64,000 nt of DNA from a virus, in the IMG/VR virus record IMGVR_UViG_3300044510_000078; one strand, 5' to 3'. Below are positions 9,001 through 12,000 of this stretch, one piece after another. A program made the position numbers. The first letter of the stretch is position 1. Every line of letters begins with the position of its first letter.

Positions 9001-12000
9001 TTAACGTCAAGCCAGCAAACGCGGTGAATACAAAGGGGGCCGAGGGCTTTACCGTTATCGGAGAGGATTGGGCCAACGCGCCCGCCCGTTTCCACCTGAT
9101 GTATTGCCCGCGCAAAGCCGTCGAAATCAGCGGCGCACAGACTCGGAAGGAAGGCGAACAAAAGGAGCGTTGTCCTCATTTGGGCTTTAATCAATCGTCC
9201 ACTTGAATTTTTCGGGCGCGCTCACAGCTTCGGCCTCGCGCACCGTCGCCAGTGATTCGGCGATGAACTCCTTAGAAAACACGTCGGAGGGCAGGGTTTT
9301 AATGATGGATTCACCAATGAACAAGCCGCTACGCAAGGCGCGGTATTCGCTTTCCGTAAGGGTAATGGAGGCGGTTGAAGTCATGGGTGTATTATGCGGG
9401 TTTTTTGTTTCCTGTCAAGTGGGAAAGGCGCGGCAGGATTTGAACCCGCACCTTTTCAGGATTACGTTTCGGCGGCTTCGGTTTCCCGTGCGCTTACTAG
9501 GTAGCGTCTATCCCATTCCGCCACAGAGCCAAAGAGCAAATGATGTTTTGAGTATGCAGGATTTTTTCACCTTGTCAATCCCACCCGTAGCATCCACAAT
9601 AATAGGAGTCTCGCTCCCGTGTGGGACAATGTTCAAAATAGGGTAGGTTGGAGTTACTATCCACGATGGCGTGATTACCATACGTGCAAGACGCTTTCCG
9701 GCCAGTCAAATCGGGCATGGGAGCCTCGATATACGCGCCGGGGTCAAGTCCCGCACAAATCGCGCAACAGGGCTTCTTATCAAAAGAAGCGTTGGCCGCA
9801 TGGCCGCATTTCATAATGGGTATCATGGGTTAATGATAAAAGATTTTTGCGTCCCGTCAAGCCCTAATTGCCAATTCTGCTAACCCCCATTATCGAAATA
9901 TCCCCATACGCTTCGGATGCCTTTCGTATTGCGTCCATTTTGTTCCTAGCTCAAACGTGGCAATAGGTTTGTTCGCCGTTTTTCTTATACGTAACTTCAA
10001 AAAGGTAGGTATTCAGAGCTTTTTCCATCATTTTAAGCGCAAAAACCTCGCGCTCGTTTTGCCTTGTGGCAGACTGGTTTTCTTCACCGTTGGGATTTTC
10101 GCGGTAGGCTTTCATGCGCGGGGGCTATCTAATTCGCAAAAGACTTCAATGGCGAAGCTGGTATAATCATAATCCACCAATTCCAGTTCCCGCGCTTCGG
10201 ACGCAAAGGCCGCGTTCAACTCGGCGCGGTTTGCCGCCGCCCAAGTGAAGAAGTGAGGGGGCAAAACCCTTGCTTCAAGTTCGTCAATGAGAATGTCTTG
10301 CATGATGGGATAATAGGGGCTTTTGGGAATCTTGTCAAACCTTATGCGGGGCGGGCATACAAAACCCACGTCGGAACGCCCCACCCATAGCCCCGCGTAT
10401 CGGAGGCCACGGAAACGCGCCAGTCGGCGGGCAAGATACTGGCAAAGTCCGCCACGTCCGCATCGTCGGGTTTCTGCGTGTCCAAGCGAATTTCGGCGCG
10501 GGGTCCGCCCCCATCCTTGAAAAAGGCGGCAACGCGCCCCATCGGGGTTGAGCGGTTATGGGTGAAGTAGGGTGTCATGGGTGACAATATAGGGAATCTT
10601 GCGGGCCTTGTCAAGCCTTAAAGCGTTAGGGTATTATTCGTTCCCTTGCAAGATACCCAAGACGATACAAAGACAGAGAAACACCATCGCCCTAGTCCCC
10701 TTCGCACACGTCGCACCCGCCGAGGACTGTTTCCCATCGGCCCGTTTTGGGGTCGTAATGTTCAACGCTGACGCCACCCGCCCCCCGACAAAGCCAAATG
10801 CGACGACGTGGTTCCTTAACTTTCAAGGAACAGCATTGCCCGACGCAAAGGGTGGGCATTGCTTCGAGTTCCGCCGCGCTATATTCGCAAATCATGGGTG
10901 AATGATAGAGGATTTTAAGCCTTGTCAATGTCGAGCCCACAAAAAATAACGGTTTTTCTCATTCCGTTGCAACGGAACAAGCGGGATAACCGTGGGTTTG
11001 CATCTGGCCTGACGCTTACCCGTGAACCCGAAGGGCGGCACTAGCCGTTATCCCTCATTTACTCAGTGCTTTCCTGAGAGGCAAGCAGAACTCTGGCCCT
11101 GCTATCAGTCGGCGATTTCGCTGTATTGAACCCGCGCCGAACCAAACCTACGCTGTTTTTGAGTTTAGGGAGTCTCACGGGGCGATTACCTTATCCCGTT
11201 GCGAGTCTCGTTCCGCTAGCAGAACTGCACTCGCGACAATGTGAAATTAAATCTTTTTTGGGGCGGCGTCAAGAGCATACGGATTGATAAAGTTCTGCAA
11301 AAGATTACCGTCCGGCCCGACAAAGAAGCGCAAACCGATGCAGTTAGGCAATCCTGCTTTGGTAGCCAATCGGATAGCTTGCTGGCGTTGCTCATCGTTC
11401 AAACGGGCGAAGGGAAGGGCGTATTCATTATTCATATATGCAGCATACAGGAATGTTGCGCGCCGTCAAGCTGTAAAAACAACAGCAAGGCAACGAACGG
11501 AGGTAATGAGCATGGCGACAATGGCGGGCCAGTAAAGCCAATGATTGAATGGGTCCTGAGAATCGGGGGTTTGCATCAATAGGTTTCCAGAACCACCTTG
11601 CCGTTCGGAAACGTCTCGAAATGGCTCTTGCGGCCCGAAAAGTAGGTATTTCCAATCTTGAACCAATACCGGCCCCGCGAGAACCTTGTGGCGAGCAAAT
11701 GAAGGCCGCGATTGACTTCCCGTAGCGAGCTTTTATCCTCTGCCGTCAACACGGTATTACGCTTGGCAAACACACGCTCGCCAACGGAAAAACCATTGAT
11801 TTGTCCGTTTGTGAAGGCGTCAGAGGCTTGTTTGTAAGTCATGGAAACAGAATAAAGAAAATTCGGGCCTTGTCAAGCGTGGGGCGGCAAGACCTGTTGG
11901 AAAACAATGCCGCCCGATGACAAATCGTGCATCAATTTACGCATGACGCCATTGATGGTTTTCTGGCCGGTAAGTTGCCGCAGAATGGCCGCATCCGCTT

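What the first reader, a model, noticed from the sequence alone, without database searches (positions are those of the whole stretch)
9427..9577. Second tRNA-shell RNA with an expanded centre and its own promoter
Seen: the same D-arm signature (TGGCGGAATGG..AGACGC) and T arm (GCGGG-TTCAAAT-CCTGC). The 54-nt centre holds GAAA-capped hairpins (CGG-GAAA-CCG, CCT-GAAA-AGG), or alternatively ACCT/AGGT closes it as one domain. The acceptor is imperfect (GGCTCTG vs CGCGCC). Promoter TTGACA-16-CATACT lies just upstream. Inference: the same RNA class as 26224..26344 with an unrelated insert, so the tRNA shell is reused with exchangeable payload domains.
Basis: partly seen in the sequence, partly recalled or inferred. 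Interest (0 to 1): 0.75.

Follow-up and report, generated by a model that had tools for sequence, protein, structure and literature searches.

The report
Hybrid, non-decoding phage tRNA look-alike
This is a real small-RNA cassette of a large phage that keeps the D and T arms of a leucine tRNA but has no anticodon. Its two acceptor strands come from two different tRNA lineages and barely pair, so it is most likely a recombinant, crippled member of a widespread and little-studied family of phage tRNA-shaped RNAs.

Summary
The sequence features are all present, on the minus strand (RNA 9530..9425, promoter 9578..9551).

The element belongs by descent to a large phage family. In this family a leucine-tRNA-type shell (acceptor, D arm, T arm) encloses a non-decoding centre of 32-104 nt. 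I collected 140 distinct members from metagenomes. Their shell helices covary, one centre family shows compensatory changes, and dozens of unrelated centres sit in near-identical shells. So the "exchangeable payload" idea holds for the family. The scan had already noted this family on other DNA. The closest documented relative is phage T5 RNA1, annotated "tRNA-like stable RNA with unknown functions".

This copy is the family's worst member:
- Its acceptor has 2 Watson-Crick pairs, 3 G.U pairs and 2 C:C mismatches.
- Position 73 is U, not the A that LeuRS needs.
- Forcing the cloverleaf costs 16 kcal/mol over the free fold (family median 0.5).
- The centre folds no better than shuffles.
- No diverged homologue was found.

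Its 5' half matches ordinary phage tRNA-Leu(UAA) genes (partner strand CAGAGCY/CGGAGCT). Its 3' half matches a different lineage (partner NGGCGYG). It is therefore a hybrid made by recombination rather than by slow decay. Whether it is expressed or functional was not tested.

The parts
9551..9578 (-). Sigma-70-type promoter: TTGACA (9578-9573), 16-nt spacer, CATACT (9556-9551).
   Evidence: 10 of 12 matches. It has the same hexamers and spacing as the promoter at 8781-8754. Nine promoter-like sites were found in 2 kb against 1.8 in shuffles.
9531..9550 (-). Stretch between the -10 hexamer and the first shell base. The predicted start is about 7 nt after the -10, leaving a 5' leader of roughly 13 nt that would need trimming.
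   Evidence: The start site is inferred from promoter geometry and was not measured.
9524..9530 (-). Acceptor 5' strand GGCTCTG.
   Evidence: The 16-mer GGCTCTGTGGCGGAAT occurs in 44 viral contigs. Thirty-five of them are 82-86-nt elements with a 7/7 acceptor whose 3' strand is CAGAGCT, CGGAGCT or similar; the sequences printed are tRNA-Leu(UAA).
9504..9521 (-). Leucine-type D arm GCGG-AATGGGATAG-ACGC: a 3-bp stem and a loop containing GG.
9450..9503 (-). 54-nt centre in place of the anticodon and variable arms.
   Evidence: minimum free energy -8.5 kcal/mol, z = +0.46 against shuffles. No anticodon arm is found. It is unrelated to every other centre collected.
9472..9493 (-). Best local hairpin of the centre: GCGC/GC-CGC outer pairs with a bulge and an internal loop, then CGG-GAAA-CCG (9488-9479).
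   Evidence: (constrained fold). No covariation data are available.
9451..9460 (-). Second GAAA-capped 3-bp hairpin, CCT-GAAA-AGG. It competes with the ACCT/AGGT closing pairs.
9433..9449 (-). T arm GCGGG-TTCAAAT-CCTGC (5 bp including one G.U).
9426..9432 (-). Acceptor 3' strand CGCGCCT, followed by U at the discriminator position (9425).
   Evidence: The 19-mer GTTCRAATCCTGCCGCGCC occurs in 21 viral contigs. At least 13 have a 7/7 partner strand NGGCG(C/T)G, and none has GGCTCTG.
9391..9418 (-). Promoter of the next cassette (65-aa ORF 9384..9187). It starts 8 nt after the element, and no terminator lies between them.
26223..26344 (-). Sister shell RNA with a perfect 7-bp acceptor, A73 and a 70-nt unrelated centre.
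   Evidence: the shell costs only 2.9 kcal/mol over the free fold.
12913..12926 (-). Relic of the same D-arm head (GTGGCGGAATGGG) with no T arm or acceptor partner.
6701..6795 (-). Third, more distant tRNA-like RNA: acceptor GUCGGGU/AUCCGAC and a T arm differing from this element's by one base.

Best explanation
The element is a non-coding cassette descended from phage tRNA-Leu-type 'shell' RNA genes. It is a hybrid.

What it is:
- Its 5' acceptor strand and D arm come from the GGCTCTG lineage of phage tRNA-Leu(UAA) and shell genes.
- Its T arm and 3' acceptor strand come from a CGCGCC lineage.
- I infer that one recombination event joined the two, somewhere between the conserved D arm and the T arm.

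Consequences, read directly from the sequence:
- The acceptor helix is mostly unpaired.
- The discriminator is U.
- There is no anticodon arm.

Consequences, inferred:
- It cannot decode.
- Going by the E. coli LeuRS rules, it should not be leucylated.
- It should be a poor RNase P substrate.
- It is probably still transcribed by host sigma-70 polymerase from its own early promoter, with read-through into the next cassette.
- Most likely it is a crippled relic. At best it acts only through the intact D/T elbow and the centre.

The family it derives from works as a tRNA-shaped carrier. The constant shell would give processing and stability through the host's tRNA machinery. In most members A73 plus the Leu elbow might also allow charging. 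The variable centre would be the functional module. The carrier role is inferred and no function is known.
For: Hybrid origin:
- The 5' 16-mer occurs in 44 viral contigs. Thirty-five are 82-86-nt elements with 7/7 acceptors and 3' strands CAGAGCT (17), CGGAGCT (15) and similar; those printed are tRNA-Leu(UAA).
- Two carriers are expanded shells ending in CAGAGCC (L189, L197).
- None of the 44 has CGCGCCT.
- The 3' 19-mer occurs in 21 contigs. Their partner strands are NGGCG(C/T)G, and they include the expanded Leu-type shells L224 and L214.
- L217 carries the same 24 bases of the 3' half. None of the 21 has GGCTCTG.

Outlier status:
- Of 140 distinct members, 127 have 7/7 acceptor pairs and 116 have A73. 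This copy has 5/7 and U73.
- The shell costs 16.2 kcal/mol over the free fold, against a median of 0.5 and a next-worst value of 9.4.
- The centre has z = +0.46, against a family mean of -0.88.

The family is real:
- The shell helices covary, with 11 of 15 pairs changed on both sides.
- One centre family has compensatory pairs.
- The family is almost absent from cellular genomes: 6 loci among one genome each of 185,579 species.
- T5 RNA1 scores 39.7 bits with the shell model.

Other tRNA-derived pieces lie in the same array, at 12913-12926 and 6701-6795.

LeuRS rules: A73 and the D/T elbow are required, while the anticodon and variable arms are not (PMC9976931).
Against: - The D arm and T arm are letter-perfect for all conserved positions, and the cassette keeps a good promoter. 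A dead relic need not keep either.
- Two GAAA-capped hairpins in 54 nt exceed a crude chance estimate, which hints at a folded centre.
- The parents of the proposed hybrid were not found. The halves match lineages, not a specific donor gene.
- The crossover point cannot be located.
- The only second copy (L109, 99.9% identical over 3364 nt) shows that the sequence recurs in another assembly record, but it gives no divergence to analyse.
- Expression could not be examined.
Confidence: 0.55

Rival explanations
1. One reading: a fully functional tRNA-shell RNA of the same class as 26223-26344. It carries a different payload domain, tolerates a weak acceptor, and is expressed from its own promoter.
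For: - The class and its modularity are real.
- The D arm, T arm and promoter are intact.
- GAAA hairpins are enriched in the centre.
- Forced into the canonical register, the acceptor still has 5 of 7 pairs when G.U is counted.
Against: - It is the only one of 140 members with two acceptor mismatches, and it is the extreme energetic outlier.
- It has U73.
- The centre is no more stable than shuffles.
- The two acceptor strands belong to different lineages.
- No homologue shows a conserved centre.
Confidence: 0.25
2. An ordinary phage tRNA-Leu gene decaying in place. On this view the centre is what remains of the anticodon and long variable arms after point mutations and small insertions.
For: - The 5' half is the same as that of canonical phage tRNA-Leu(UAA) genes.
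- No anticodon arm is detectable and no central structure is supported.
Against: - In the GGCTCTG tRNA-Leu relatives printed, the stretch between the D arm and the T stem is only about 31-33 nt, against 54 nt here. No residue of their anticodon arm (GCGGATTTAAAATCCGT) remains.
- The T arm and 3' strand match another lineage over 24 bases, which drift would not produce.
- The mismatches are confined to the acceptor, while 25 conserved shell positions are untouched.
Confidence: 0.12
3. An intron-containing or split tRNA that is spliced to a decoding tRNA-Leu.
For: An unchecked first-reader note reports insert-bearing tRNAs in this phage's tRNA cluster, far outside the window.
Against: - ARAGORN, allowing introns of 0-200 nt at a relaxed threshold, finds nothing here.
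- No anticodon stem can be read at either end of the centre.
- 54 nt is far below the size of the bacterial tRNA-Leu group I introns (general knowledge).
- A broken acceptor would remain after splicing.
Confidence: 0.03

Closest known systems
Phage T5 RNA1 (NC_005859 30501-30644, annotated 'tRNA-like stable RNA with unknown functions')
   Same: It has a Leu-type D arm (GCCGGAATTGGTAGACGG), a T arm, an acceptor formed by the two ends and a centre of about 70 nt with no anticodon arm. It scores 39.7 bits with the shell model, above T5's own tRNA-Leu at 29 bits.
   Different: T5 RNA1 lies inside a tRNA cluster and is annotated as a stable RNA. Here the element has its own promoter in an array of single-gene cassettes, the acceptor is mismatched, the discriminator is U, and expression is unknown.
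Phage T4 species 1 RNA (rnaC, NC_000866 70908-71046) and T5 RNA2
   Same: Both are small phage RNAs annotated as stable, with a tRNA-like acceptor and T arm and no decoding function. They score 24.6 and 19 bits with the shell model.
   Different: They have no Leu-type D arm, a different overall layout, and lie within tRNA clusters.
Canonical phage tRNA-Leu(UAA) genes with acceptor GGCTCTG
   Same: The first 16 bases are identical and the D arm is nearly the same.
   Different: They are 82-86 nt long with a 7/7 acceptor and, in the sequences printed, a normal anticodon arm, a long variable arm and A73. None of that holds here.
tmRNA and bacterial Y RNA (YrlA)
   Same: These are RNAs that keep part of a tRNA shape around a non-tRNA body.
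   Different: No tmRNA was called and there is no Rfam match to either family. From general knowledge, tmRNA lacks a D stem and carries a tag reading frame, and YrlA has its ends in the anticodon-side stem and is encoded beside Ro60. Here the Ro60-like DUF2828 gene is 35 kb away.
Engineered tRNA scaffolds for RNA expression (from my own knowledge, not checked here)
   Same: The anticodon arm is replaced by a cargo while the shell gives processing and stability. This is the working analogy for the family.
   Different: These are artificial constructs. No natural function is implied, and this copy lacks the stable acceptor on which such scaffolds rely.

Membership tests
Canonical tRNA (Rfam RF00005) | Score at or above the curated gathering threshold, or a call by a tRNA finder. 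| tested here: not met
   16.2 bits against 29. ARAGORN finds nothing, with or without introns.
Canonical tRNA (Rfam RF00005) | A 5-bp anticodon stem with a 7-nt loop. | tested here: not met
   None is found in the 54-nt centre.
Canonical tRNA (Rfam RF00005) | A 7-bp acceptor helix. | tested here: not met
   2 Watson-Crick pairs, 3 G.U pairs and 2 C:C mismatches.
Phage Leu-type tRNA-shell RNAs (family defined here; T5 RNA1-like) | Leu-type D arm TGGCGGAAT.GG..AGACGC and a T arm with a TTCRAAT loop. | tested here: met
   Zero mismatches to the pattern and a 5-bp T stem.
Phage Leu-type tRNA-shell RNAs (family defined here; T5 RNA1-like) | A non-decoding centre of 32-104 nt between the D and T arms. 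| tested here: met
   54 nt with no anticodon arm.
Phage Leu-type tRNA-shell RNAs (family defined here; T5 RNA1-like) | A fully paired 7-bp acceptor (127 of 140 members) that the free fold retains (96%). | tested here: not met
   5/7 pairs. The free fold keeps none of the acceptor or T-arm pairs, and the shell costs 16.2 kcal/mol.
Phage Leu-type tRNA-shell RNAs (family defined here; T5 RNA1-like) | Discriminator A73 (116 of 140 members). | tested here: not met
   U at 9425.
Phage Leu-type tRNA-shell RNAs (family defined here; T5 RNA1-like) | Match to the shell covariance model. | tested here: inconclusive
   51.6 bits, but this sequence was in the alignment the model was built from.
Phage Leu-type tRNA-shell RNAs (family defined here; T5 RNA1-like) | Accumulates as a stable processed RNA. 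| not testable with these tools
tmRNA | tRNA-like domain plus a tag reading frame; called by ARAGORN or Rfam. | tested here: not met
YrlA / bacterial Y RNA | Rfam match; ends in the Ro-binding stem; gene next to Ro60. | tested here: not met
   No match even at E up to 10. The ends here are at the acceptor. The DUF2828 gene lies at 44539-46059.
Intron-containing tRNA | A canonical cloverleaf after removal of one internal segment. | tested here: not met
   ARAGORN with introns of 0-200 nt at a relaxed threshold.

The most novel reading that the evidence does not exclude
The Leu-type shell RNAs of phages, including the intact sister copy at 26223-26344, may be natural tRNA-shaped carriers. Host RNase P, CCA-adding enzyme and perhaps LeuRS and EF-Tu would handle them, and each would present a different folded module. 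The modules might, for example, soak up or redirect host factors or tRNA-targeting defences. On this reading, shells recombine freely so that modules and halves are exchanged between phages. The present element would then be a freshly made recombinant that still acts through its elbow and GAAA-hairpin centre.
Probability: 0.15. Interest if true: 0.8.

Novelty: new variant of a known kind. Interest (0 to 1): 0.4.

Why it matters
Phage tRNA clusters have long been known to contain a few unexplained "tRNA-like stable RNAs" (T4 species 1 and 2; T5 RNA1 and RNA2).

The relatives gathered here show that these are not curiosities. A Leu-type shell with swapped centres is abundant in uncultured phages, is under RNA-level selection, and is nearly absent from cells. 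Standard tRNA finders miss much of it and Rfam has no family for the centres.

This particular copy adds two points:
- Such shells also occur outside tRNA clusters, as single promoter-driven cassettes.
- Its mismatched halves are direct sequence evidence that shells recombine with one another, which is the process that would swap payloads.

On its own it is probably a damaged gene, so its value is as a marker of that process rather than as a new mechanism.

Tried and rejected
- No whole genome is held for the window.
- blastn of the region against 50,697 phage records found nothing.
- Synteny: homologues (44-66% identity) of the 83-aa gene just upstream lie in other phage contigs. There they are followed directly by protein genes with no tRNA-like element, so the cassette has no orthologous context.
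- Relatives of the phage found through the 298-aa gene carry only canonical tRNA-Ser, Asn, Pro and Arg.
- A host tRNA-Leu with this D loop was sought in 185,579 species genomes. None was found.
- Antisense target: no complementary stretch of 11 nt or more for the centre exists elsewhere in the window.
- The long plus-strand ORF over the element (9263-9646) and the flanking small ORFs have no PHROG family; only 8442-8747, two cassettes downstream, does. The plus-strand ORF is probably spurious.
- Centre modules standing outside a shell: every extra match turned out to lie in a shell variant that my pattern had missed.
- The alternative free fold of the whole RNA is no more stable than shuffles (z = -0.65), so a designed switch between two folds is not supported.
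- The hexamer CGAAAC shared with the sister copy is at chance level by my own estimate.
- Four literature searches found no description of the family.
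Full report
**The observation**

The element lies on the minus strand, with the RNA sense running 9530 to 9425.
- Its parts in order are acceptor strand GGCTCTG, then TG, a D arm GCGG-AATGGGATAG-ACGC, a 54-nt centre, a T arm GCGGG-TTCAAAT-CCTGC, the strand CGCGCCT and a final U.
- A TTGACA-16-CATACT promoter sits at 9578-9551. The promoter of the next cassette starts 8 nt after the element, and no terminator lies between.
- The D-arm pattern occurs only here and at 26318-26337 in 64 kb, against 0.15 expected even with three mismatches allowed.
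- ARAGORN does not call it, with or without introns. The Rfam tRNA model gives 16.2 bits against a threshold of 29. Its alignment marks two non-pairs in the acceptor and skips 50 nt.

**Setting**

- The window belongs to a large phage encoding rIIA-like, ATP-dependent ligase, RlaP, DUF2828/DUF7788 and AAA proteins.
- Bases 1-25,000 are 45-58% G+C and the rest is about 35%.
- The element lies in the G+C-rich part. Around it, small minus-strand ORFs each follow their own promoter with the start codon a few bases after the -10.
- No whole genome is held for the window.
- A 3364-nt metagenome contig (L109) is 99.9% identical across 7714-11077 and has no difference inside the element. The sequence therefore recurs in another assembly record, but that copy offers no divergence to study.

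**A large family**

- A scan for the shell pattern (Leu D arm, a 45-75-nt gap, T loop) found 9 viral contigs.
- From these I extracted 140 distinct elements.
  - 103 share the acceptor AGTCAGG/CCTGACT.
  - 127 have 7 of 7 acceptor pairs.
  - 116 have A at the discriminator position.
  - The centre ranges from 32 to 104 nt and falls into dozens of mutually unrelated sequence groups.
- Several contigs hold two to five different elements. In the viral contigs checked they sit among ordinary tRNA genes.
- On 55 representatives the shell helices are 99.3% paired, and 11 of 15 pairs show changes on both sides. This is far above the shuffled and slid controls. My extraction required at least 5/7 acceptor and 4/5 T-stem pairs, so part of that pairing is by selection.
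- In a 16-member group with a 54-nt centre, the centre's own hairpin shows compensatory changes, and the shell stems change while the centre stays constant.
- Two human-gut contigs carry the same centre in shells with different acceptor and T stems.
- The pattern is nearly absent from cells: 6 loci in a collection holding one genome for each of 185,579 species.
- So a constant tRNA-Leu-type shell with exchangeable, structured centres is real for the family.
- Earlier notes of this scan describe the same family in other genomes. I reached it independently and then used their pointer to T5.

**Closest documented relatives**

- T5 RNA1 is annotated in the T5 record as a "tRNA-like stable RNA with unknown functions". 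It has a Leu-type D arm, a centre of about 70 nt, a T arm and an acceptor made by its two ends.
- It scores 39.7 bits with my shell model, above T5's own tRNA-Leu.
- T4 species 1 RNA scores 24.6 bits and T5 RNA2 scores 19 bits.
- Four literature searches found no paper describing the wider family.

**This copy is the outlier**

- It is the only one of the 140 with two acceptor mismatches, and it has U73.
- When the shell pairs are enforced, its energy is 16.2 kcal/mol above its unconstrained minimum. The family median is 0.5, the 90th percentile is 2.8 and the next-worst value is 9.4.
- In 96% of members the unconstrained fold already contains the acceptor. Here it contains none of the acceptor or T-arm pairs.
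- The centre alone folds at -8.5 kcal/mol, z = +0.46 against dinucleotide shuffles. The family mean is -0.88 and the sister copy is at -1.4.
- The whole RNA's free fold is no better than shuffles either (z = -0.65).
- Points in its favour: the conserved D- and T-arm positions are all intact, the promoter is good, and two GAAA hairpins in 54 nt exceed a crude background of 7 per 50 kb.

**The two halves have different ancestries**

- The first 16 bases, GGCTCTGTGGCGGAAT, occur in 44 viral contigs.
  - Thirty-five are 82-86-nt elements with 7/7 acceptors whose 3' strands are CAGAGCT, CGGAGCT or close variants. Those printed are tRNA-Leu(UAA) genes.
  - Two more (L189, L197) are expanded shells ending in CAGAGCC.
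  - None ends in CGCGCCT.
- The 3' 19-mer, GTTCRAATCCTGCCGCGCC, occurs in 21 viral contigs.
  - At least 13 have a fully complementary 5' strand NGGCG(C/T)G.
  - These include the expanded Leu-type shells L224 and L214.
  - One ordinary-looking tRNA gene (L217) has the same 24 bases of the 3' half.
  - None has GGCTCTG.
- The T arms of the GGCTCTG lineage differ from the one here.
- Drift from CGGAGCT to CGCGCCT would need three adjacent changes plus a remodelled T arm that happens to copy another lineage. One recombination between two tRNA(-like) genes explains both facts.
- The same array holds other tRNA-derived fragments. A 13-nt head GTGGCGGAATGGG lies at 12913-12926 with no tail. A distant tRNA-like RNA lies at 6701-6795, with a T arm one base different from this one.
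- The donors themselves were not found, and the crossover point cannot be placed.

**How it most likely works**

- Shown from sequence: there is no anticodon arm, a mostly unpaired acceptor, and U73.
- From the literature: in E. coli, LeuRS requires A73 and the D/T-loop tertiary pairs but not the anticodon or variable arms. Minimal tRNA-Leu molecules lacking those arms are still charged, and an A73C change abolishes charging (PMC9976931).
- Inferred: most family members, including the sister copy, could be processed like tRNAs and possibly leucylated. This copy should not be charged and should be a poor RNase P substrate.
- My best reading (0.55) is a recombinant, crippled member that is probably still transcribed.
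- Plain in-place decay of a tRNA-Leu is less likely (0.12).
- An intron-bearing tRNA is unlikely (0.03).

**Other readings tested and dropped**

- tmRNA and Y RNA: no calls or matches, and a different topology.
- An antisense regulator of a target in the window: no complementary stretch of 11 nt or more.
- A protein gene on the plus strand: no family match.
- A conserved partner of the upstream 83-aa gene: that gene's homologues are never followed by such an element.

**Verdict**

Noticed in passing
window 1-26000 versus 26000-64000: There is a sharp composition change: 45-58% G+C in the first ~25 kb and about 35% in the rest. The G+C-rich part includes ArdC-like, DUF932, DUF2786/DUF7168 and RuvB-like genes, and small ORFs that each follow their own promoter. 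The intact shell RNA at 26223-26344 sits at the boundary.
   Followed up: partly
window 6701-6795 (-): A third tRNA-like RNA: acceptor GUCGGGU/AUCCGAC, a mini D arm GCG-CAAGGGGGAA-CGC, a 47-nt centre, a T arm GCGGG-TTCAAAT-CCCGC, three extra bases before the 3' strand, then a T run. It scores 15 bits with the shell model.
   Followed up: partly
window 12913-12926 (-): An isolated copy of the shell head (GAGCGTG-TG-GCGGAATGGG) with no matching T arm or acceptor partner downstream. It looks like a relic of another tRNA-like gene.
   Followed up: partly
L001:1776-1851 (-) and L009:10529-10604 (+): ARAGORN reports a tRNA with a four-base anticodon (cgaa) in the same phage tRNA array as a shell RNA.
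   Followed up: no
L072:1508-1616 (-) and L101:2523-2631 (-), human-gut contigs: Both carry the same 57-nt centre in shells with different acceptor and T stems. The centre can form interleaved helices (GAGTA/TACTC and GAGCTTT/AAAGCTC, the second covarying), which suggests a pseudoknot. L002 and L006 centres show similar interleaving.
   Followed up: partly
L189:2773-2953 (-): A 181-nt shell with a perfect GGCTCTG/CAGAGCC acceptor. Its centre contains a second T-arm-like hairpin (CCCCG-TTCGATT-CGGGG), that is, a tRNA-like piece nested in a tRNA-like shell.
   Followed up: no
window 33051-48872 (-): A set of genes with RNA-repair-type families: ATP-dependent ligase (33051-34175), RlaP nucleotidyltransferase (36626-37738), DUF2828/DUF7788 (44539-46059) and an AAA ATPase (47685-48872). 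No link to the shell RNAs was found.
   Followed up: no
window 5110-5278 (-): At a relaxed threshold and allowing introns, ARAGORN reports a 'tRNA-Val' with a 72-nt intron and poor stems. It is probably a false call in G+C-rich DNA.
   Followed up: no
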